IMG/VR virus record: IMGVR_UViG_3300010362_000056
Location: 1 to 36,877 of that record
Origin: a virus
Taxonomy: Duplodnaviria; Caudoviricetes
Strand: one strand, 5' to 3'
Length of the DNA: 36,877 nucleotides
In this document: one piece after another, positions 1 to 20,135 of the stretch
How the letters are laid out: every line of letters starts with the position of its first letter
Numbering within the stretch: the stretch's first letter is position 1
Position numbers and translations under genes: made by a program
Notes under the pieces: generated by a model
The model's input: only the letters and a program-made list of their open reading frames with translations
Told to the model about the DNA's origin: nothing
Database searches by the model: none

Positions 1-335
1 CGAGCCGGAGAAATTCAGAAGACCCGCAGTCTGTAAGCGTGCCGTCACCGAGTAGAGGCCCGAGACCTAAGAGCGAGCCGACGCCGTCGAAGCGAAGAAG
101 CCCCGTGAGAAGGAAGCGAGCCGCCGAAGCTTAGAGACCCGAACCAGCGAAGCGAGCCGTGCAAAGACCCGTCACGCTGGAGCGAGCCGGACATGGCGAG
201 AGACACGTTGGAGTCCAGCGAGCCGACACGTCCAAGAGTCCCGAAAGGAGATAGCGAGCCGTCGTGGCGTAGAGAACCGACCGAAGTGCAAGCGTGCCGT
301 AACAGGCAAGAGACCCACGGAGCCAAAGCGAACCA
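1..335 (+). ncRNA. TIGR-like dual-repeat guide array 1 (about 9 units, truncated by the window start)
   Basis: AGCG(A/T)GCCG and AGAGACCCG-like 9-10 nt repeats alternate with mostly 9-nt variable spacers, giving a 36-nt period. Example: AGCGAGCCG 115-123, CCGAAGCTT, AGAGACCCG 133-141, AACCAGCGA, AGCGAGCCG 151-159. Confidence 0.85.
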
Positions 336-356: not shown

Positions 357-1109
357 ATGGCCGAGATCAACCGTAAGGTCCTCGACATCAGTCACCACAA
401 CAACGTCACATCGTGGGAGCAGGTCAAAGCCGCCGGGATTGTCGGCATCATTCACAAGGCGACCGAGGGCACGAGCTACACCGACAATCAGTATCTGCCG
501 CGCGCGAAGCAGGCGCTCAATGCCGGGCTGTTGTGGGGCGCCTATCACTTCGCCAACAACAGCGACGTCGAGGCTCAGGTCAACCAGTTTCTCCGTGTCG
601 TCGGCATCGACAACGAGACGCTCTATGCGCTCGACTGGGAGGATGAGCCGAACGGCAAGACCATGTCGCGCGATCAGGCGAAGCGCTTCCTGCAATTGCT
701 CGAAGAGCGCACCGGCCGCAAGGGCGTGGTCTATTCCGGCAACCGGGCGAAGGAAGCGCTCGGCAAGGATCACGACGAGTACTTCGGCGCGCACAGGCTT
801 TGGCTCGCGCAGTACGGCTCGACGCCGCAGGCACAAGTCTCGTGGGATGAAATCTGGCTCTGGCAATATTCCGATGGTCAGGTCGGCCCACAGCCGCGCG
901 GTTGCCCGGGCGTGACGGGCTACGTCGATACGAACTCGTGGGACTTTTCCGACGACGACTTGCGCGCGCAATGGTCGGGCTGCGACGAGGCCCCGGCGCC
1001 TGGACCGACGCCCGAGACCGCAGTCGTCAGCATGCGGCTCACGTCGGATCGCCCGGTGACGGTCAAGATCGAGACCGGCCTCGGCGTGCAAATCGAGTAC
1101 CAGCCGTAG
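357..1109 (+). CDS. GH25 family muramidase (endolysin-like)
   Basis: Motifs DISHHN, KATEG, GAYHF, LDWE, LWLAQY, LWQYSD and VDTN are typical of glycoside hydrolase family 25. GAGGAG RBS upstream. Confidence 0.9.
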   Translation: MAEINRKVLDISHHNNVTSWEQVKAAGIVGIIHKATEGTSYTDNQYLPRAKQALNAGLLWGAYHFANNSDVEAQVNQFLRVVGIDNETLYALDWEDEPNGKTMSRDQAKRFLQLLEERTGRKGVVYSGNRAKEALGKDHDEYFGAHRLWLAQYGSTPQAQVSWDEIWLWQYSDGQVGPQPRGCPGVTGYVDTNSWDFSDDDLRAQWSGCDEAPAPGPTPETAVVSMRLTSDRPVTVKIETGLGVQIEYQP

Positions 1110-2768: not shown

Positions 2769-3197
2769 ATGGCCACAAAAAAGAACAGGACCATCGGTTC
2801 ACGTATCGCTGAGCTTGTCCATCGTCGAGGCCTCACCGTCATCGACTTCGCAGGCCGCCTTGGCGTGAGCCGATCGCAGACTCACAACTATCTCAGCGGC
2901 TACAGCGAGGTCTCAGCCGACCGGCTCAAGCAGATTGCGGCCGTGCTGGAGTGCAAGCCCGAGCACCTGCTGCAGCCGCCGGGCTCGCGCATCCCGCGAC
3001 GCATCCCGCACAAGCCGCCCCTGGTCCCGCCCAGCAGCGGCACCTCGCTCGTCCCGCCAAGCACGGCAACTTTCGTCAATGCCTTCGAGGTGGCGCGAGC
3101 GCACATCAGCGATCCCAGGTTTCGGAAAATCATCCGCGACTACATCGATGGGTTGCAGCGGGTTGCAAAAACCAAGAGCGAGGCACCGCAATGCTAA
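2769..3197 (+). CDS. XRE-family HTH transcriptional regulator
   Basis: IGSRIAELVHRRGLTVIDFAGRLGVSRSQTHNYLSG...LKQIAAVLEC fits an HTH_3/Cro-C1 pattern. Confidence 0.8.
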   Translation: MATKKNRTIGSRIAELVHRRGLTVIDFAGRLGVSRSQTHNYLSGYSEVSADRLKQIAAVLECKPEHLLQPPGSRIPRRIPHKPPLVPPSSGTSLVPPSTATFVNAFEVARAHISDPRFRKIIRDYIDGLQRVAKTKSEAPQC

Positions 3198-3490
3198 CGC
3201 TCATGCTGCTTCGGCCTCATCATGCAGAGGTCAACCATCGCCTGGGTCGCGACCTTGCACGCGTCAAAGCCGATCAAGCTCGCAAGCCGCCAGAACTCCA
3301 CGACGCCGATCCGCCGCTCGCCGCTTTCGACCCGCGCAAGCCATTGTTGCGAAAGGCCGATCACACGGCAAACATCCTGCTGGCGCAAGCCGCGAGCTTG
3401 CCGCTCGCGCTTCAAGGCCTCTCCCAGGCTCTTATCTCCGCGCTTGCCTTCCCCACGGAAGACAGTCCCCCGACGCGATTTCCTGGGCAT
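3194..3490 (-). CDS. XRE-family HTH regulator (repressor candidate)
   Basis: LGEALKRERQARGLRQQDVCRVIGLSQQWLARVESGERRI is a classic XRE HTH. Confidence 0.85.
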   Translation of the reverse strand: MPRKSRRGTVFRGEGKRGDKSLGEALKRERQARGLRQQDVCRVIGLSQQWLARVESGERRIGVVEFWRLASLIGFDACKVATQAMVDLCMMRPKQHER

Positions 3491-3591
3491 TGCTCGCTCT
3501 GTACGTTTATAACATACCGAATTAAGTCATTAGCTTTAGCGACGGACTTTATTCATTTTGCGCATAGCAGGCAAGACCGGGGCACAGCAGC
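3491..3591. promoter_or_regulatory. AT-rich divergent promoter region (possible genetic switch)
   Basis: AT-rich intergenic stretch (TTTATAAC, AATTAAG, TTTATTCATTTT) between the leftward HTH gene and the rightward operon. Confidence 0.5.
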
Positions 3592-3840
3592 ATGACTGCC
3601 AACCCCGAGCACGTCGACGCCCTGGTCGACGAGATAAAGCCGATCCTTGCAGGGCATGCGCCCAATCTCGTGGGCGCCGTTCTTGCCGACCTGCTCGCGA
3701 TCTTTATGGCCGGACTCCATCCCGCCCTGCGCGAGGAAATCCTGGAGATGCACATCAAGTCGGTGCGCGGGCTCATCCCGATCAACGAAGCCCGCATGCG
3801 CGAAGAAGGTCGATACCCACCAGACTGGAGACCGCAATGA
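3592..3840 (+). CDS. Hypothetical protein
   Basis: GC3-rich ORF overlapping the next gene by ATGA. Confidence 0.65.
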   Translation: MTANPEHVDALVDEIKPILAGHAPNLVGAVLADLLAIFMAGLHPALREEILEMHIKSVRGLIPINEARMREEGRYPPDWRPQ

Positions 3841-4196
3841 AAGGCGAGCTGCTCACCCTCAAGCCCGACGGCACCCGCGACAAGCAACCGCTCACCGGCG
3901 AGCCCGGGCTCGACCTGCTGCACGACATTGTCGGCGGCTACATCGAGGTCGTTCCCTACTTCTCGACCATCGAGATCGACGGCGTCGTCCACAATTGCAT
4001 CGCTTTCTGCAACGAGGAGGGCAAGTTCGCACGACCCGAGCCACTGCCGCTCAACGCGCGCGCCACCGACGCGTGGGACAGCTCGATGCGCCGCGCAGGC
4101 ATCCCGACCGGCGCGATGCCTGATCACCTCGTCGGAAATATCGCCGTGATAATCGGCGACGAAGTTCTGCAGGCCATGCGAACCGACAGCGATTGA
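3837..4196 (+). CDS. DUF3846-like protein
   Basis: LHDIVGGYIEVV...FCNEEGK...LPLNARAT...LVGNIAVI pattern. GGAG RBS. Confidence 0.75.
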   Translation: MKGELLTLKPDGTRDKQPLTGEPGLDLLHDIVGGYIEVVPYFSTIEIDGVVHNCIAFCNEEGKFARPEPLPLNARATDAWDSSMRRAGIPTGAMPDHLVGNIAVIIGDEVLQAMRTDSD

Positions 4197-4227
4197 AAAA
4201 CAAAACCGCTGAAGTGAAGGGGACACT

Positions 4228-4902
4228 ATGAAGCTAGCGAAGCACCACCGCGAGATCACAGACGAATTAGCACGCTACGGAATCAAGCCGGACATCGAGC
4301 CCAACGGCCGCGGCCACGTGCTCATGCACTGGCGCGTGCACGGTCATCATCAAAGCATCACGGTCGCGAAAACACCGAGCGACTGGCGCGCACAACGCAA
4401 CAACATCGCGAAGGTGCGCCGCCTCCTGCGCAACGCAGGCGTCGACACCACTGCCGAGCAAACCGTGAGCGTGCCGCTCTGCAGCCTGTCACCACAGCAG
4501 CGGCAAACCATCTTGCTCGAAGACCGCATCACGCAGCTTGAACGCGACGTCGCCATGCTGCTCGACCGCCTCACCGCTCCGGAGCTGCCAGCACCAGCAC
4601 TGGCGATCGAGCCGCCACCGCCGCCCGCACCGATCGAGGAGCCGCCACCGCCCAGGCGGCACCGCGGGCGCCCGCGGGCAGACCTGTCATGGCTGTGGCG
4701 CGTCATGCGCTACGATGCTTTTCGGCCGTACGACGCCATCGCCAAGGATGCTGGCCGCAGGGTCGGCTATGTGAGCACGGTGCTCATCCGACTGAAAAAG
4801 CGCGGGCTGGTCGAGCATCGGTACCGCGAAGGCTGGCGCAAGCATCGCAGCGTCGAGCGCACCAACGGCCACGCCAACGGGCACGCGGAGGCGCGGCCAT
4901 GA
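4228..4902 (+). CDS. Protein with HicA-like N-terminal fold, Pro-rich linker and putative C-terminal wHTH
   Basis: N-terminus GRGHVLM...ITVAKTPSDWRAQRNNIAKVRR. PPPPP linker. C-terminus IAKDAGRRVGYVSTVLIRLKKRGLV. Confidence 0.55.
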   Translation: MKLAKHHREITDELARYGIKPDIEPNGRGHVLMHWRVHGHHQSITVAKTPSDWRAQRNNIAKVRRLLRNAGVDTTAEQTVSVPLCSLSPQQRQTILLEDRITQLERDVAMLLDRLTAPELPAPALAIEPPPPPAPIEEPPPPRRHRGRPRADLSWLWRVMRYDAFRPYDAIAKDAGRRVGYVSTVLIRLKKRGLVEHRYREGWRKHRSVERTNGHANGHAEARP

Positions 4903-5102
4903 GCGTCGGCGAGATCAATTCAGGCAGCACGGAATTCGCCAAGCTTGCCGAGGGCATCTGTCCCGACTGCGGTCATCGCGGCTTCGTGCTCGGGCCACGC
5001 GGCGGAGCCAGCATCAACGTCGAGTGTGGGAATCGTGTGTGCGCAGCACGATTCAGTCTTGCCACGTTCGGATGGGAGTTGATGGCCGCGCAACGAATCT
5101 AA
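4899..5102 (+). CDS. Small zinc-ribbon protein
   Basis: CPDCG...ECGNRVC motif and ATGA overlap. Confidence 0.65.
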   Translation: MSVGEINSGSTEFAKLAEGICPDCGHRGFVLGPRGGASINVECGNRVCAARFSLATFGWELMAAQRI

Positions 5103-5557
5103 AGTGCCGTGAACGAGAAGAGCCCCTGAATACGATAGCGAGCCGCGCTACCGCAGAGACCCGAACCAGCGAAGCGAGCCGATGAACGAGAGAGACCCGC
5201 AACTCGGAAGCGAGCCGAATCTAAAATAGAGACCCGACGTGTAATAGCGACACTGAGACCCGCCGCGCCGGAAGCGTGAGAGAACCGAGACCATAAGCGA
5301 GCCGCGAAAATGAAGAGCACCGTCGACACCAAGCGAGCCGCGTGACCCGAGAGACCCGAAGCAGGCGAGCGAGCCTGGAAGTTGAAGAGACCCGTGGAAG
5401 TTTAGCGAGCCGAGCGAAGACAGAGCACCGCGGGACTCTAGCGAGCCGAGCCTAAGGAAGCGAACCGCGACAATGAAGCGAGCCGAGAGGCGCAAGAGAC
5501 CCGAAACGGCCCAGCGAGCCGAAATTGGAAAGAGACCCGTGAAAACCTAGCGACCCA
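5101..5557 (+). ncRNA. TIGR-like dual-repeat guide array 2 (about 11 intact plus 2 degenerate units), upstream of the tas gene
   Basis: AGCGAGCCG at 5137, 5173 and 5209 and AGAGACCCG at 5155 and 5191 give an exact 36-nt period with 9-nt spacers. Ends at AGCGACCCA 5549-5557. Confidence 0.88.
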
Positions 5558-5573
5558 GGAAGGGGAGAGTGAC

Positions 5574-6554
5574 ATGCCTTACGAACCAAGGATTCGATCG
5601 CTGAGAGTAATGGTGAAATCCGCCTATGCCCTCCAAAAACTTAGAATCCAAACAGGCTTACGCCTTTGCGCAAACCTGCGCGCCAAGCTCAAGGATGAGG
5701 CGCCGACCGAAACGCTGGTCGATGCCGATGCCGAGGATCTCAGCGCCGACGCCAAGAAGCTCATCAAGGACTTGTACGCTGCATATCGGCGGCTCACCGA
5801 CGGCGTGGCGAAGCGGCGCACGTTGCCTGCCGAGCGCGGCTTTCAAGGCGAGGGCGTGATCTCCGACTTCGCCGAGCTGGTGATCGCGCACAGTTACTTC
5901 GAGCTTGAACGTCAGGAGCGCGAGCAATTCCGCCTCATGGGCGAGGTGCTCGATACGATCCCGGTCTACAAGCACTGGCTCGGCAAGCAAGTCGGCATCG
6001 GCCCGGCCATGGCGGGCGTGCTGGTCACGTACTTCGATATCAACAAGGCGAGCTATCCGTCGCAGTTCTGGGCGTTCGCCGGGCTCGACGTCGGCCCGCC
6101 CATCAACGGCGTGCACCTCGCACGATCGCGGCGCAAGGAGCACCTCGTCGAGCGCTCGTATGTCGATCGCAACGGCGAGACCAAGACCAAGATGTCAACG
6201 ACGTTCGATCCGTGGCTTCAATCGAAGCTCATGGGCGCACTGGCGGTGTCGTTGATCAGGCTCAACTCGCCGTACCGGAGCTACTACGACTACTATCGGC
6301 ACCGGATCGAGAGCGACCCGAACCGCATGAAGGGCACGCTCAAGGACAAGAAGAAGCTGAGAGACGCAGGCGAGAGCGGCGAGAACCTGTGGCATCCCCT
6401 GCGAATTCACCGCGCGAGCCTGCGATACATGGTCAAACAGTTTTTGGCCGACTTCTGGCGGCAGTGGCGCGAGATCGAGAAGTTGCCGACGCGTCCTAGA
6501 TACCAAGAACAGTATCTTGGCCACCGCCACCACGGTCAGGCGGCGGCCGAGTAA
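5574..6554 (+). CDS. tasA: TasA-like Nop-domain / IS110-related RNA-binding protein lacking a nuclease domain
   Basis: IS110/Nop-like coiled coil (LRVMVKSAYALQKLRIQTGLRL), HhH-like VGIGPAMAGVL...SQFWAFAGL, and C-terminal RIHRASLRYMVKQFLADFW. No N-terminal DEDD/RuvC or HNH. Directly flanked on both sides by 36-nt dual-repeat arrays. Confidence 0.8.
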   Translation: MPYEPRIRSLRVMVKSAYALQKLRIQTGLRLCANLRAKLKDEAPTETLVDADAEDLSADAKKLIKDLYAAYRRLTDGVAKRRTLPAERGFQGEGVISDFAELVIAHSYFELERQEREQFRLMGEVLDTIPVYKHWLGKQVGIGPAMAGVLVTYFDINKASYPSQFWAFAGLDVGPPINGVHLARSRRKEHLVERSYVDRNGETKTKMSTTFDPWLQSKLMGALAVSLIRLNSPYRSYYDYYRHRIESDPNRMKGTLKDKKKLRDAGESGENLWHPLRIHRASLRYMVKQFLADFWRQWREIEKLPTRPRYQEQYLGHRHHGQAAAE

Positions 6555-6555
6555 A

Positions 6556-7068
6556 AGCGAGCCGGGATGCCGCAGAGACCCGAGATATTCCAGCGAGCCG
6601 CTCGGCATTAGAGCCCCGTAGAGTCGCAGCGAGCCGCATGAAGTCAGAGACCCGAACCGGAGTAGCGAGCCGTACACCACGAGAGCCCCGGAACCGATAA
6701 GCGAGCCGCGCGAAGTTAGAGACCCGAGCGGTAGAAGCGAGCCGACCCAGCGCAAGAGACCCGAGGTGGTAGAGCGAGCCGCGATGCAACAGAGACCCGA
6801 GGGGGAACAGCGAGCCGACATCGAAAAGGTGACCCGCAAAGCAGCTAGCGAGCCGAGGCGCCGCAGAGACCCGTTGTAGTAGAGCGTGCCGCCCAAAGTA
6901 AGAGAAACCGGAAGTGGACAGCGAGCCGACCTCGCACAGAAGACCCGGGAAGACGAAGCGAGCCGCGTTCGAGAAGAGACCCGTGCCGCACGAGCGAGCC
7001 TGGACCCGTGAGAGCCCCGTAACGAAATAGCGAGCCGATAACCGCGAGAGAACCGATGGATTACAGCG
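6556..7068 (+). ncRNA. TIGR-like dual-repeat guide array 3 (14 units), downstream of the tas gene
   Basis: Starts 2 nt after the TAA: AGCGAGCCG-GGATGCCGC-AGAGACCCG-AGATATTCC-AGCGAGCCG. Runs through to ATGGATTAC-AGCG, just before the ATG at 7070. Confidence 0.9.
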
Positions 7069-7069
7069 T

Positions 7070-7459
7070 ATGCGTGCCATCCTGATCGACCCTGAAATGC
7101 GAACCGTCAGCTACATCCAGCTCCCCCGCGACGCCGTCGAGGAGATGCACACCATCATCGGATGTGAAGGCCTTGATCACATGACGATCTCCGACATGCA
7201 CGATTCGTTGTGGGTCGACGACATGGGGCTGCGCAAGGGGCCGGTTTATGCGTTCAAGCTGCCGATCGCGCGCGATCCGATTCCGGGCCGGGCGATCGTG
7301 ATTGGTGCCGACGAGGCGGGCCGGACGTGCCCGCCATTCTTCCCGATCGACATCTTGCGCCGGGAGATCGAGTGGCTCGGGCGCATCGTGCCCGAAGTAA
7401 ATTGGTTCGAGGAAGGCAACCGTCACTATGCCGTCGTCACCTACGCCCGAGAAAAATAG
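7070..7459 (+). CDS. DUF3846-like hypothetical protein
   Basis: MRAILIDP...MHTIIGC...LWVDDMGL...IPGRAIVIG pattern. Confidence 0.65.
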   Translation: MRAILIDPEMRTVSYIQLPRDAVEEMHTIIGCEGLDHMTISDMHDSLWVDDMGLRKGPVYAFKLPIARDPIPGRAIVIGADEAGRTCPPFFPIDILRREIEWLGRIVPEVNWFEEGNRHYAVVTYAREK

Positions 7460-8120
7460 CCGCAAGTGCGGTGATTGCACCTTGTGCTGCCGACTGCTGC
7501 CGCAGAAGGCGGGCACACACAGGCGCGTCGAGATCACGGAAGCGATCAACGCCATGACCGAGCGCGGGCTCGTCGACCCGAAGGACTTCGTCGGCATGCT
7601 GCCCGAATTCGACAAGGCGGCAGGCGAGCGCTGCCAGCACCAACGTTTGCACGGCTGCGGCATCTATGCGCGGCGGCCGTTTAGTTGCCGGTTCTGGAAT
7701 TGCCGTTGGCTGGTCAACAACGACATGGACGGCATGCGGCGGCCTGATCGTGCGCACTACGTCGTCGACATCATGCCGGACTTCGTGACGCTGCAGGCGG
7801 GCGATGCCGAGCCGTTCAACATCGAGGTCGTGCAGATATGGATTGATCCGCGCCACGGCGACGCTTGGCGCAAGGATGCTGCCCTCATGGCCTACATCGA
7901 GCGCCGGGCGCATGAGGGCATTGCGGCACTCGTCCGTTCCGACGCGAAACAGGCGACCACCGTCTTCGCGCCGCCCATGGCGAGCGACAAGCAGTGGCAC
8001 GAGATCGCCGGGCGCGGCAGTGGCGAGCACCGCGGCCAAGCCCTGATCGAGGGAATCGCCAAGGCGCGCCACGTCATCATCAAGCCAGAGGAAGAAGATG
8101 GCCGATCGCGCGTACCTTGA
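7428..8120 (+). CDS. YkgJ/CxxCxxCC-type Cys-cluster (Zn/Fe-chelating) protein
   Basis: CGDCTLCC...CQH...GCGIYARRPFSCRFWNC. Confidence 0.75.
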   Translation: MPSSPTPEKNSRKCGDCTLCCRLLPQKAGTHRRVEITEAINAMTERGLVDPKDFVGMLPEFDKAAGERCQHQRLHGCGIYARRPFSCRFWNCRWLVNNDMDGMRRPDRAHYVVDIMPDFVTLQAGDAEPFNIEVVQIWIDPRHGDAWRKDAALMAYIERRAHEGIAALVRSDAKQATTVFAPPMASDKQWHEIAGRGSGEHRGQALIEGIAKARHVIIKPEEEDGRSRVP

Positions 8121-8691
8121 GCGTCTCACGAAGCGACTGACCGACGAGGGCAGGCTCATCGAGGCCGGTTGGGTCGGGCTGCGGCTGGCTGCCATCGCCG
8201 ACAATGCCCCGGCCGCGCAGCTCGAAGAGATGAGGATGGCCTTCATGGGAGGCGCCGCGCATCTGTTCGCCAGCATCACGAGCATCCTCGACCCGGGCGA
8301 GGAGCCAACCGCGGACGATCTCGCGCGCATGAACAACATCCACAACGAGCTGCGGGCATTCGAGGAGGAGTTCAAGCGCAAGCACGGTCTCGGCAAGCGG
8401 GCCGAGCCACCACCGCAGCCAGCACCGACGCTCGGCGACCAGCCGATCGAGCGCGGGCACGTCGACGCAATGAACGTCTGCGCACACATGCTTGACAAGT
8501 TTTTCAACGGCGACGCCCAAGGCGACGCGCGAAAGATGGGCTTCGTGTTGCTGCTGTTCAAATTCGGAGAGCAGGACACGAGCCGTTGTAACTTCATCTC
8601 GAACGGTGCTGACCGGCGAGATGTGGTGACCCTGTTCAAAGAAATGATTGCCCGGTTTGAAGGCCAGCCAGAAATGGAGGGCCGAGCATGA
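8098..8691 (+). CDS. Hypothetical phage protein
   Basis: GC3-rich ORF with GAGG RBS. Confidence 0.7.
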   Translation: MADRAYLERLTKRLTDEGRLIEAGWVGLRLAAIADNAPAAQLEEMRMAFMGGAAHLFASITSILDPGEEPTADDLARMNNIHNELRAFEEEFKRKHGLGKRAEPPPQPAPTLGDQPIERGHVDAMNVCAHMLDKFFNGDAQGDARKMGFVLLLFKFGEQDTSRCNFISNGADRRDVVTLFKEMIARFEGQPEMEGRA

Positions 8692-9211
8692 GTTGAGCCG
8701 CGCTTTGGAAGCAGACCCGTTGGAGTAGAGCGAGCCGTTCCCGAGAAGAGACCCGGGCCGCAAGAGCGAGCCGAGGCCGCCGAGAGACCCGTTGGAGTAG
8801 AGCGAGCCGTTGTTGCGAAGAGACCCGCGAAAGATTAGCGAGCCGTGATTTGCAGCGACCCGAAAAAGGAAAGCGAGCCGGGGATCGGCAGTGACCCGTT
8901 TCCTGCGAGCGAGCCGTGAGAGCGGAGAGACCCGAAAGGCCTCAAGCGAGCCGTTGCCGATGAAGTGCAGATGATCCGAAGTGGCCAAGCGAGCCGAGTG
9001 CCCGGAGAGAACCAGAGCCTGCTAGCGAGCCGTATCTGTAGAGAGACCCGTGACGCTCAAGCGCTGCCGTAACGCGTTAGAAGAACCGCGTGGTCTAAGC
9101 GAGCCGCGATAATCGAGAGACCCGTCGTCGAGGAGCGAAAGCCGTGACTGTCAAGAGCACCGTAACCGTGTAGCGAGCCGAGCGGTAGAAGAGACCCGAG
9201 ATGAGTTAGCG
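8692..9211 (+). ncRNA. TIGR-like dual-repeat guide array 4 (14 units), no adjacent tas gene
   Basis: Same two repeats and 9-nt spacers. Begins right after the TGA ending at 8691 and ends with AGCG immediately before the ATG at 9212. Confidence 0.88.
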
Positions 9212-9487
9212 ATGATGGGACGTTTCCGCGTGCAGTGGATCGACGGCGGGCGTGAGGCGCAGGCGCCGTCCGATCCACGCTACCCAAACGGTATTGACCT
9301 CGACACCGCGGGCAGGATGGCAGCCCGCCGTTGCCGGGTGCGGCTGCCCTATCCCGCCAAGCGCTGCGGCCAATACCTGATCGAGTGCCAGACGTGCGGC
9401 TTGTTCTCGGTTGTCACGGCTGCCGGACGCCGTGATGATCCGCGATCGGTCACGGTTGGCTGCAGGAACGGGGTGGTACGCAAATGA
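9212..9487 (+). CDS. Hypothetical Cys-containing protein
   Basis: ORF with CQTCG and additional Cys. ATGA overlap with the next gene. Confidence 0.6.
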   Translation: MMGRFRVQWIDGGREAQAPSDPRYPNGIDLDTAGRMAARRCRVRLPYPAKRCGQYLIECQTCGLFSVVTAAGRRDDPRSVTVGCRNGVVRK

Positions 9488-10964: not shown

Positions 10965-12212
10965 TCACGCCGCGAATGGCACGATGTTGTTCGGGTTGGT
11001 ATCGAGCAGCCCGAGCCGCGCGACCCGATCGCCCTGCTTGGCAGCCGCCTCCGCGATCCAGCGCGCATAGTGGGTCTCGATTTCCTTGACGCTGGTGTCG
11101 TGGTTCTTCGCGACCAGCAGAACGGGCGTGCCTGCCAAGATCGCGCGCACGATCGAGGAGTGGCGCAACGCGTAGAGCGTGATGGTCGCGGGATCGAGCC
11201 CGGCCGCCTCGACGACGGTGCGGAAGGCCCGCCGGTGCGCATCGTTCTTGCGGCTATGGCCCCAGGCCTCGCCCTTGCCGTTGAGCAGCAGGGGCGCGTC
11301 GGCGATCCGGCCTCGTGCGCCAGCCTTGAGCGCTGCTGCGAGCGCGGGCGAGATCGGCACCGGGACGCGCTCGGTGTTCTTCTCGCCGCGGTTCTTGTGC
11401 CCGCCCTTGTCAGAGCGCGGCATCATCAATTGTGCCGATCCATCCAACAAGTCCTCGACGACCAGCCGCGCAAACTGCGATTGCCGTGCGCCGGTCTGCG
11501 CGGCCGTCTCGACCATGAGCCCGAAGGCGCGATCATGCTCATAGGCGAGATATACGATCCGGCGCACGGTCGCGTCGTCGAGCACCATCTTGCGGGCGCG
11601 GTTGGCGCCGGGGATCGGCTTCAATCCGATCTCCCACGGCTGCCGACTGCTGATGCCATTCGACTCGTCATCGGCTGCCAGCGTGAGTGCTGCACGCATG
11701 CAGCTCATTGTGCGGTTGGCGCTCGCCGGTGCCATCTTGGCGACGAGCGTGGCGCGCCACTGCTTCCAGTCCTTGACCGCGGTGAGGCGGACCGCCTTGG
11801 TGAGCAGCGCGGCCGGGAGGTAGCTCCCGGCGCGATCGGCGTTGTAGGGGTCGCCGTTGCGCGTGATCAGGTCGTCCTTGTAGGCGTCGAGCGCGTCACC
11901 GACCGTGATCGGCCGGGTCTCGACCGTCTCGCCCGAGCCGGTGCGCACGAGAGCGCGCGCGGTGTCGATCGCCTGCCAGTACGTGAGCACGGTCTTGCCG
12001 TCGGCCTGCTCAAGGTCATCGGCGATCGCGATGCGTTTGATCCACTGCGCGCCTTGCGCGGTCGAGCGCACGCTCCACGTGCCTGCACCATCGTTGCGCC
12101 GATAGCCGAGCGCGATGCCCGGGCTAATCACTTTCCAGTACGGCCGCTTCGCTACCGGCAATTTCAATCGCGCGGTCGCAGTCTCCAATTTGAAGTCTCT
12201 CACTTTCGGCAT
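10965..12212 (-). CDS. int: Tyrosine recombinase / phage integrase
   Basis: N-terminal arm-binding-like region (LGYRR...GTWSVR). Catalytic R in TGARQS, YALRH, NHDT, and Y in ETHYA. Confidence 0.92.
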   Translation of the reverse strand: MPKVRDFKLETATARLKLPVAKRPYWKVISPGIALGYRRNDGAGTWSVRSTAQGAQWIKRIAIADDLEQADGKTVLTYWQAIDTARALVRTGSGETVETRPITVGDALDAYKDDLITRNGDPYNADRAGSYLPAALLTKAVRLTAVKDWKQWRATLVAKMAPASANRTMSCMRAALTLAADDESNGISSRQPWEIGLKPIPGANRARKMVLDDATVRRIVYLAYEHDRAFGLMVETAAQTGARQSQFARLVVEDLLDGSAQLMMPRSDKGGHKNRGEKNTERVPVPISPALAAALKAGARGRIADAPLLLNGKGEAWGHSRKNDAHRRAFRTVVEAAGLDPATITLYALRHSSIVRAILAGTPVLLVAKNHDTSVKEIETHYARWIAEAAAKQGDRVARLGLLDTNPNNIVPFAA

Positions 12213-12689: not shown

Positions 12690-12766
12690 GGTGAGCCGAC
12701 AGAGACCAGTAGACCCGTGCCTCGCCAGCGAGCCGAAGATAATAAGAGACCCGTGACGAGCCAGCG
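12690..12766 (+). ncRNA. TIGR-like mini-array (2 units)
   Basis: GAGCCG-ACAGAGACC-AGTAGACCCG-TGCCTCGCC-AGCGAGCCG-AAGATAATA-AGAGACCCG-TGACGAGCC-AGCG. Confidence 0.75.
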
Positions 12767-12776
12767 AGATCGCCTG

Positions 12777-13065: not shown

Positions 13066-13101
13066 AGCGAGCCGATTGGAAACAAGTGAACCGCAAGACC
13101 T
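13066..13101 (+). repeat. Solo degenerate TIGR-like unit
   Basis: AGCGAGCCG-ATTGGAAAC-AAGTGAACCG-CAAGACCT, followed by the ATG at 13102. Confidence 0.45.
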
Positions 13102-16445: not shown

Positions 16446-16495
16446 GTGACTACTCCACTGCTTTCGGGTTAGGCTTGAGGCGAGCGCGCACGACG

Positions 16496-18901: not shown

Positions 18902-20135
18902 TGCTCAGCACTCGAATGGTCGTGGGACAGAAGGCGGGGTGAATGATGTCGTTCTCGTCCTCGATCTCTTCGTAGCGTGAGGCGTCCTGATAGATGCGAT
19001 TGGCGAGGTAGAGCGACGGCATCGGGACCTGGGTTGAGTAGCCGACGAAGCGCGGAAGCTGCAGCTCGATCGAGCCGAGATGGTTGATCAGTGCACCGCC
19101 GAGCGCGGTGATGGTCTGGTAGACGATGGCGTCGATATCGTCGACCGCGAGCTGCTGTGCCTGATCGAACATATCGCGCACGTGCAGGATCATGTTGTGC
19201 ACCTGCTCCTTGGTCTTGAAGCGCATGCGCGAGATGATTTTCGATTGCAGCGCGAGCGTCATCACGAGGATCGGGCGCAGCAGCATTTGCGTGATGAGCG
19301 AGTTGCTCGTGGCCGCCGACATGACGAACACGCGCGTTGCCTCGATTCCGCGGTAGGTTGCGCCAGCGAGGTTGGCGTCGAGATTGATTTGCTCAAGCTC
19401 GGCACCGAGCCCGGGGCTGCGGACGGCTTGGTCGGCGCGTGCCCGGAGCGAGGCGATCTCGCCGCGCACCTTGTTGATCTCGTCGGTAGTGCCGGACGGA
19501 ATCGAGGCGAGGAGGTGGTCGAGGTACTGCCGCAGGAAGTCCGAGGCCTCCTGTGCCTGCGTGTAGAACGACGGCGGGAAGGTCGGCGGCCGGACGTCCT
19601 GCGTGAAGCGCGGGAAGCCGAACGAGGGCGAGCCGGTCCAGTACGCATTGACCCGCAGCGCGTAGGTGATGAGCAAAACGGGCGGCGGATCGCCATAGGT
19701 TGGATCACCGACCCAATAGGGGTCCGCCGTCAGTTGGGCGTTGAAGGCAAGCCGTGGTGCACCGAAGTCGGGCGAGCCGGTCGCGCTCGCGTTGGCCAAG
19801 AGCACGAGATTGCGAACGATCGCCGGGGTGCCGAATTGCGGGCGCTGCGTCCAATACGGCGCGACTGCAAAATTGTGCACCTGCCGCATGATCGGAGCGC
19901 CGAAGGTCGGCGAGCCGACGACGTAGGCGTTGGCATGCAGCGTGATCGTTTGCGCTGCAAGCACCGGCGTGGCGAATTGCGGCGAGCCGGTCCAGTAGGC
20001 ATTCGCCGAGAGCGCTACCGCGAGCGCTGGTGTTGCGAATTGCGGCGAGCCGAGCGTGTAGGTCGGTGCAATGAAGATGAAGCCGACCTGAAAGGCGTTG
20101 TTCTGAAATGCGTCGACTTGGAAGCCGGAAGGCAT
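18876..20135 (-). CDS. Repeat-containing protein fused to the C-terminal part of a Mu N/gp43-like DNA circularisation (tail hub) protein
   Basis: About 8 N-terminal repeats of YxxGSPxFxxP. C-terminus MPSLYLANRIYQDASRYEEI...IIHPAFCP resembles the Mu N-like C-terminus. Confidence 0.7.
   Translation of the reverse strand: MPSGFQVDAFQNNAFQVGFIFIAPTYTLGSPQFATPALAVALSANAYWTGSPQFATPVLAAQTITLHANAYVVGSPTFGAPIMRQVHNFAVAPYWTQRPQFGTPAIVRNLVLLANASATGSPDFGAPRLAFNAQLTADPYWVGDPTYGDPPPVLLITYALRVNAYWTGSPSFGFPRFTQDVRPPTFPPSFYTQAQEASDFLRQYLDHLLASIPSGTTDEINKVRGEIASLRARADQAVRSPGLGAELEQINLDANLAGATYRGIEATRVFVMSAATSNSLITQMLLRPILVMTLALQSKIISRMRFKTKEQVHNMILHVRDMFDQAQQLAVDDIDAIVYQTITALGGALINHLGSIELQLPRFVGYSTQVPMPSLYLANRIYQDASRYEEIEDENDIIHPAFCPTTIRVLSNVGRPNRL

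What the first reader, a model, noticed from the sequence alone, without database searches (positions are those of the whole stretch)
5574..6554. The effector appears nuclease-less: programmable binder or repressor rather than cutter or transposase
Seen in sequence: the protein begins directly with the coiled-coil helix, and there is no DEDD/RuvC N-terminal domain or HNH motif. Where IS110 transposases have GLxP...SG with the catalytic serine, it reads AGLDVGPPINGVHLARSRRKEH, followed by a basic insertion. A second basic insertion (RMKGTLKDKKKLRD) lies near the C-terminus. Inference: a TasA-type protein that may silence host or competitor genes by binding, or recruit a partner in trans. The co-oriented neighbours (Zn-ribbon 4899-5102, Cys-cluster 7428-8120, HicA-like fusion 4228-4902) are partner candidates.
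Basis: partly seen in the sequence, partly recalled or inferred. Interest (0 to 1): 0.7.

Follow-up and report, generated by a model that had tools for sequence, protein, structure and literature searches.

The report
Phage TasA, nuclease-free RNA-guided DNA binder
This phage gene encodes TasA, the already described member of the TIGR-Tas RNA-guided systems that has no DNA-cutting domain; it sits among 42 two-part guide units and likely binds and blocks matching DNA, so it is a real but ordinary new example of a known kind.

Summary
ORF 5574-6554 (326 aa) starts at the coiled coil, has an in-frame stop 44 codons upstream, and carries no RuvC/DEDD, HNH or IS110 'SG' motif. Its predicted fold matches TasH and TasR only downstream of their nuclease domains. 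It lies among dual-repeat TIGR arrays (42 units in five arrays) in a likely temperate myovirus-like phage fragment. This is TasA, defined in 2025 (PMC12045711); RNA-guided repression by a stem-loop TasA was shown in 2026 (bioRxiv 2026.09.09.750476).

(1) Y310/H317 align with the TasH guide-processing dyad Y289/H296, so the protein is likely still an RNase for its own guides.
(2) The partner candidates are not conserved: 0, 0 and 2 of 46 related phage records carry them.

The two 'insertions' are conserved features of this clade. No natural target was found in the phage itself (0 of 43 parsed units at two mismatches or fewer), or above control level in kin phages. An integrase is present here but in only 1 of 46 related records. 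Repression by a dual-repeat TasA remains untested in what I read. The scan has reported TasA loci on other DNA before. Low interest.

The parts
5574..6554 (+). tasA: 326-aa solo-Nop TIGR-associated protein (coiled coil about 4-126, Nop/CTD about 130-301, C-terminal loop with Y310/H317)
5101..5557 (+). TIGR dual-repeat array A1, upstream of tasA; 11 parsed units (edge AGCGAGCCG, 9-nt spacer A, loop AGAGACCCG, 9-nt spacer B)
6556..7069 (+). TIGR array A2, downstream of tasA; 13 parsed units; ends in a truncated edge repeat directly before ATG 7070
8692..9211 (+). Satellite TIGR array A3; 11 parsed units; ends in a truncated edge repeat directly before ATG 9212
18..335 (+). Satellite TIGR array A0, at the contig edge and possibly cut by it; 5 parsed units; upstream of a GH25 endolysin
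12690..12770 (+). Short, degenerate TIGR array A4 (2 parsed units); a single-unit remnant also lies at 13066-13093
6501..6524 (+). Codons Y310 to H317: predicted guide-processing dyad, aligned with SpTasH Y289/H296
   Evidence: alignment; residue roles in PMC13421893; conservation

Best explanation
The gene encodes a solo-Nop TasA of a dual-repeat TIGR system, which likely cuts its array transcripts into 36-nt guides, dimerises, and binds matching 18-bp DNA sites without cutting them, likely blocking transcription or replication of foreign DNA (competing phages, plasmids or host genes). Shown here: the domain content, the array grammar, the absence of an N-terminal nuclease, and the lack of a conserved partner gene. 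Inferred from TasH and TasR: dimerisation through the coiled coil, tandem pairing of spacers A and B with opposite DNA strands, and guide maturation by Y310/H317. Inferred from a stem-loop TasA: repression by steric block. Not shown: expression, binding, and the natural targets.
For: Top structural matches are all TasH/TasR, and sequence hits are to 21kl and 9mty. Forty-two array units have alternating edge and loop repeats with mostly 9-nt spacers. 55 of 66 non-redundant related loci with both flanks show 36/37-nt periodicity, against 22 of 400 control window pairs. 89 of 93 closed-frame relatives allow at most 58 extra N-terminal residues; of the four longer ones, three read through array-like DNA and none hits a nuclease family. 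No second tas copy was found in this contig or in 46 related records. Four fetched relatives (L142, L143, L154, L157) are listed in Table S1 of PMC12045711. MbTasA binds target DNA and represses reporter and chromosomal genes (bioRxiv 2026.09.09.750476).
Against: Repression was shown with a stem-loop TasA, not with a dual-repeat one. In human cells TasA-activator fusions gave only low activation, and deleting RuvC from TasR abolished activation (bioRxiv 2026.07.30.739400), so solo-Nop binding may be weak. No target was found anywhere: 0 of 43 parsed units at two mismatches or fewer in the contig, and no excess over control geometries in 0.74 Mb of tas loci, 1.1 Mb of related phages or 0.95 Mb of kin phage loci. 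H317 is kept at the same column in only 54 of 115 homologues. The contig is about 50% complete, so an unlinked partner gene cannot be excluded.
Confidence: 0.68

Rival explanations
1. TasA's main job here is RNA processing: the arrays fill the gaps between co-oriented early genes, so cutting at edge repeats would split the phage's polycistronic mRNA, including the tasA message, and tune gene expression; DNA targeting is secondary.
For: A1, A2 and A3 each begin at or within a base of an upstream stop codon; A2 and A3 end directly at a start codon. No terminator-like site follows them. The Y/H dyad is retained. In 19 phage records, 12 of 26 arrays that end in a truncated edge have a gene start within 30 nt, against 12% of random positions.
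Against: In dense phage genomes any intergenic element ends near a gene start, so the control is weak. Terminal edge repeats are truncated, and processing was shown only with full edge repeats (PMC12045711). 685 of 700 spacers are distinct, which is not needed for mRNA cutting. There is no RNA data.
Confidence: 0.1
2. TasA is a targeting module that recruits a neighbouring protein (HicA-like 4228-4902, Zn-ribbon 4899-5102, Cys-cluster 7428-8120) or an unlinked nuclease in trans.
For: The genes are co-oriented and contiguous with the arrays. One close relative (L083, 63% identical Tas) has a 41%-identical Cys-cluster gene about 2 kb upstream. A TasA-ParB operon is described in PMC12045711.
Against: The three neighbours are near 0, 1 and 4 of 165 tas loci and in 0, 0 and 2 of 46 records (searches had no positive control for their own query). 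No non-array gene family recurs in more than 9 of 99 loci, and the top ones are helicase, polymerase and similar replication genes, judged by eye. ParB is absent here and present in 3 of 47 records.
Confidence: 0.07
3. The guides regulate the phage's own genes (for example the lysis-lysogeny switch) by binding its own genome.
For: The contig carries two Cro/C1-type HTH genes (2769-3197, 3194-3490) and a tyrosine-integrase-like gene (10965-12212). Half of the genome is missing.
Against: 0 of 43 parsed units match the contig at two mismatches or fewer, the same as shuffled pairs. 0 of 350 units from 19 phage records self-match at two mismatches or fewer.
Confidence: 0.06
4. TasA bends target DNA as an RNA-guided aid to the phage integrase (a speculation in PMC12045711).
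For: A tyrosine-integrase-like ORF lies 4.4 kb downstream, weakly matching PF00589.
Against: PF00589 is in 2 of 47 records including this one, and in 0 of 10 near-complete ones. PF00239 is in 0 of 47. Controls rang in 14 and 12 of 14 genomes.
Confidence: 0.04
5. The protein is a cryptic DNA nuclease or recombinase, or a truncated IS110 transposase, using S185 as nucleophile.
For: S185 is conserved. The protein hits phrog_4285 'transposase' and, weakly, Transposase_20. The IS110 fold match is Z 13.1.
Against: IS621 S241 works only with the DEDD residues of a RuvC domain (PMC11208158), which is absent. FpTasA has no serine in that loop, by eye. The family is full-length without RuvC and array-linked.
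Confidence: 0.03

Closest known systems
FpTasA, dual-repeat TIGR-TasA of Flavonifractor plautii (PMC12045711)
   Same: Solo Nop domain starting at the coiled coil; dual-repeat array with 9-nt spacers and 36-nt units. By eye against the sequence in Table S1, motifs match along the whole length, for example 17 of 34 identical residues in the C-terminal helix and loop, including the Y and H.
   Different: Longer insertion around residues 244-277 (33 aa here, 14 in most distant relatives); five dispersed arrays; a myovirus-like phage record. No computed alignment with FpTasA was made.
MbTasA and PlTasA, stem-loop TasA (bioRxiv 10.64898/2026.09.09.750476; 10.64898/2026.08.11.744272)
   Same: No DNA nuclease domain; shown to bind target DNA (both) and to repress transcription (MbTasA).
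   Different: [quoted passage not shown] This one is dual-repeat and keeps Y310/H317.
SpTasH (PDB 21kl, 9w03, 9w04) and TaTasR (PDB 9mty)
   Same: Coiled coil plus Nop core (Z 17.8 and 17.4); the Y/H dyad aligns with SpTasH Y289/H296; dual-repeat arrays.
   Different: No N-terminal HNH or RuvC domain here.
IS110 bridge recombinases (IS621, ISCro4)
   Same: Related coiled coil plus Tnp/Nop fold (Z 13.1).
   Different: No DEDD RuvC domain, no SG catalytic loop; guides are a tandem array, not a bridge RNA.

Membership tests
TIGR-TasA (dual-repeat) | Nop domain with N-terminal coiled coil, homologous to Tas proteins | tested here: met
   phmmer E 7e-12 to TasH and 2e-6 to TasR; profile E about 1e-15; Foldseek and VIA-align top hits
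TIGR-TasA (dual-repeat) | No N-terminal RuvC or HNH domain | tested here: met
   In-frame stop 44 codons upstream with no start codon between; model starts at the helix; 0 of 115 homologues with a DEDD or HNH Pfam hit
TIGR-TasA (dual-repeat) | Adjacent array of alternating edge and loop repeats with about 9-nt spacers, 36-nt period, shared box C/D-like motifs and truncated terminal edges | tested here: met
   42 array units; edge AGCGAGCCG, loop AGAGACCCG; AG and CCG shared by both repeats. Assigning AG and CCG to boxes D and C is by analogy with UG/CCA in PMC12045711.
TIGR-TasA (dual-repeat) | C-terminal Y/H guide-processing loop of dual-repeat Tas | tested here: met
   Y310/H317 align with SpTasH Y289/H296; Y in 115 of 115, H at that column in 54 of 115; a His within +6 to +10 in 89 of 89 relatives that have the Tyr
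TIGR-TasA (dual-repeat) | Array transcribed and processed to 36-nt tigRNAs bound by the protein | not testable with these tools
   Needs pull-down and small-RNA sequencing
TIGR-TasA (dual-repeat) | Guide-dependent DNA binding or repression without cleavage | not testable with these tools
   Shown for MbTasA only; no natural target found here
IS110 recombinase | DEDD RuvC domain and catalytic serine in an SG loop | tested here: not met
   No N-terminal domain; SG within 16 aa after G170 in 8 of 93 relatives and not in this protein; requirement from PMC11208158
TasH / TasR | N-terminal HNH or RuvC nuclease | tested here: not met
   Structural alignment starts at TasH residue 66 and TasR residue 110
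TasA-TasParB operon | parB-like gene in an operon with tasA | tested here: not met
   No PF02195 match in the contig; controls rang in 10 of 14 genomes. A divergent ParB could be missed.

The most novel reading that the evidence does not exclude
This phage uses dispersed TIGR arrays as cleavage cassettes inside its early operon, so that TasA is both an RNA-guided DNA blocker and the RNase that splits and tunes the phage's own polycistronic mRNA, including leaderless messages where an array ends at a start codon.
Probability: 0.08. Interest if true: 0.55.

Novelty: new member of a known kind. Interest (0 to 1): 0.13.

Why it matters
It adds one more dual-repeat TasA with 42 guide units to a family of which thousands of loci are catalogued. 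Its modest value is as a test case: in the papers I read, repression was shown only for stem-loop TasA, and natural targets of TIGR guides remain unknown. The comparative counts here also argue against three standing ideas for this clade: a fixed neighbouring partner, self-targeting, and help to an integrase.

Tried and rejected
Target searches:
- Own contig, four geometries plus shuffled pairing: nothing at two mismatches or fewer among 43 parsed units, one of them an isolated unit at 16492 later dropped.
- 350 units from 19 records against their own record: 0 at two mismatches or fewer. Against all 19 records: 13 at two mismatches, versus 12 and 17 at two or fewer in control geometries.
- 42 units against 86 loci of kin phages (0.95 Mb; gaps 0-2): 1-3 hits at two mismatches, versus 0-4 in controls. 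These kin are only 57-73% identical in the sheath protein, so close-kin targeting was not really tested.
- Whole-collection searches for predicted 18-bp targets were not run, so host and distant-phage targets stay open.

Other searches:
- Longer fused homologues: none, which is weak evidence.
- The first single-protein viral scan found no relative; the alignment-based scans did.
- No RNA holder listed among sequencing runs. DNA contigs of one other sample cover the locus with no listed difference in tasA.
- No sigma-70-like promoter in 3300-9400, with 0.8 expected by chance.
- The protein's own motifs were not found in the held part of Table S1 of PMC12045711, which was cut when stored. It may still be catalogued there or in the closed supplements of the 2026 preprint.
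- L308 continues the phage beyond base 36877 with terminase-like genes and shows no tas or array.
- No complex prediction was sent: the neighbours are not conserved, and a TasA dimer would pass by likeness to solved structures.
- No computed alignment with FpTasA was made; the comparison is by eye.

Full report
Observation. The ORF at 5574-6554 encodes an intact 326-aa protein. The frame upstream has a stop 44 codons before the ATG and no start codon in between. That stretch is array DNA with no Pfam match, and a purine-rich site precedes the ATG. An AlphaFold2 model from 115 aligned sequences (pLDDT 90.7, pTM 0.85) starts with a long helix at residue 4. Foldseek's ten best matches are all TasH or TasR chains. 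VIA-align gives TasH 21kl residues 66-290 (Z 17.8), TasR 9mty residues 110-316 (Z 17.4) and the IS110 recombinase ISCro4 (Z 13.1), then a drop to 7.3. The match therefore begins after the nuclease domains. None of the 115 sequences hits a DEDD or HNH Pfam family; 58 hit Transposase_20. Among 99 non-redundant related loci, 93 have a closed upstream frame and 89 of these allow at most 58 extra residues. The four longer ones are array-like read-through (three) or a charged extension (one), with no nuclease family. A search for longer fused forms found none, which is weak evidence.

Context. The window is a linear phage record estimated 50% complete, with capsid, portal, sheath and baseplate genes, two Cro/C1-type HTH genes and a tyrosine-integrase-like ORF at 10965-12212, so it is likely temperate. 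The gene is flanked by dual-repeat TIGR arrays: edge AGCGAGCCG and loop AGAGACCCG alternate with mostly 9-nt spacers. A strict parse gives 43 units. 42 lie in five arrays (5, 11, 13, 11 and 2 units at 18-335, 5101-5557, 6556-7069, 8692-9211 and 12690-12770), and one isolated unit at 16492 was dropped. The extra C-G pair in the first repeat and the truncated copies at array ends mark it as the edge repeat, by analogy with PMC12045711. Of 66 related loci with at least 500 nt on both flanks, 55 show 36/37-nt periodicity, against 22 of 400 control window pairs.

What is known. PMC12045711 (passages; sections 6 and 7; supplement searches; its supplementary PDF could not be read and Table S1 is held cut) defines TasA as a solo Nop domain, shows FpTasA binding 36-nt guides, and proposes non-cleaving interference, help to integrases, and a ParB link. 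bioRxiv 10.64898/2026.09.09.750476 (parts 1-4 of 7 and passages; supplements not seen) shows that the stem-loop MbTasA binds target DNA and represses reporter and chromosomal genes, and says natural targets are unknown. bioRxiv 10.64898/2026.08.11.744272 (passages) gives PlTasA structures bound to target DNA. bioRxiv 10.64898/2026.07.30.739400 (part 1 of 3) found only low activation from TasA fusions. Four of my fetched relatives (L142, L143, L154, L157) are rows of Table S1, and the motif RSRRKEHL occurs 209 times in the held part. This exact protein was not found in that part.

Correction 1: probably not RNase-free. PMC13421893 (passages) names Y289 and H296 as the SpTasH residues that process precursor guides; I did not read the original paper on that dyad. 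The alignment places Y310 and H317 of this protein on them. Y310 is invariant in 115 of 115 homologues, while H317 is kept at that column in 54 of 115. All 89 locus-derived relatives with the tyrosine have a histidine 6-10 residues later. 'Nuclease-less' is therefore right for DNA only.

Correction 2: no conserved partner. Local tblastn over 165 loci (the window's own copy excluded; 95 with at least 2 kb upstream, 101 with at least 2 kb downstream) found the HicA-like ORF near 0, the Zn-ribbon near 1 and the Cys-cluster near 4, three of these at 23-25% identity. In 46 whole records the counts were 0, 0 and 2. The two empty searches had no positive control of their own, but the Tas family rang in 46 of 46, with no second copy. 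Clustering all ORFs within 4 kb found no non-array family in more than 9 of 99 loci. ParB is absent here and present in 3 of 47 records. Tyrosine integrases are in 2 of 47 and in 0 of 10 near-complete records; serine resolvases in 0 of 47. The HicA label itself is unproven.

The insertions and the serine. The segment after GLDV (residues 184-211) is strongly conserved in the clade; by position it likely corresponds to the wedge region of Tas proteins. The second basic stretch sits in a segment of about 33 aa in close relatives and 14 aa in most distant ones, likely the 'insertion 2' that the 2026 preprint describes as longer in dual-repeat Tas. S185 is conserved but not in an SG pair. The IS621 serine needs RuvC acidic residues (PMC11208158, passages), so transposase chemistry is unlikely.

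Targets. I used the geometry spacer A followed by the reverse complement of spacer B, derived from the 8-nt 3' overhang rule. No unit matches the contig at two mismatches or fewer. None of 350 units from 19 records self-matches at that level. Cross-matches among those records and to 0.95 Mb of kin phage loci equal the control geometries. Host DNA and close kin were not available, so these remain the likely target classes by exclusion, not by evidence.

Verdict. This is a genuine dual-repeat TIGR-TasA, most likely a self-processing, RNA-guided DNA blocker acting on foreign DNA (confidence 0.68 for that mechanism; membership is near certain). It is a new member of a known kind, and the scan has reported similar loci elsewhere. 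The one unusual reading left is that arrays wedged between co-oriented genes let TasA cut the phage's own operon mRNA; this is inference with a weak control. Interest 0.13.

Noticed in passing
window 5101-5557, 6556-7069, 8692-9211: The arrays fill whole intergenic gaps. Each starts at or within a base of a stop codon, and two end directly at the next ATG (7070, 9212). In 19 records, 4 of 26 arrays with truncated ends have an ATG within 6 nt, versus 2.5% of random positions.
   Followed up: partly
window arrays A0-A3: Spacers are reused between arrays and roles: the same B spacer in units 115 and 5137, one 9-mer as B in unit 6700 and as A in unit 9172, and one B spacer twice in A3 (8711, 8783). 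This may hint at array growth by recombination of half-units.
   Followed up: partly
G004, G009, G012, G017, G021, G024, G028, G030: Satellite arrays several kb from tas are common in this clade, up to six arrays per record, so the dispersed layout here is not special.
   Followed up: yes
G043 position 11487 and G029 position 19625: One complete guide unit (both spacers) is identical in two different phage records.
   Followed up: no
window 10965-12212 (-): 415-aa tyrosine-integrase-like ORF, below the Pfam cut-off, with R...R-H...H...Y-type residues by eye.
   Followed up: partly
window 3837-4196 and 7070-7459: Two DUF3846 genes flank the locus; a homologue of the first lies near tas in 3 of 165 loci, two of them the same contig.
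   Followed up: partly
window 357-1109: A GH25 endolysin sits right after array A0, in the early-gene orientation and away from the structural genes; a 64%-identical homologue lies next to tas in L133.
   Followed up: no
L308: A 5.4-kb contig overlaps the window's right end by 123 identical bases and carries terminase-like genes, judged by eye. Run X1's contig extends about 2 kb beyond window base 1; that DNA was not seen.
   Followed up: partly
Ralstonia phage phiRSL1, AB366653.2 13249-14202: The only cultured phage in the collection with a homologue (33% identity), annotated as hypothetical protein or transposase; a possible native test system.
   Followed up: no
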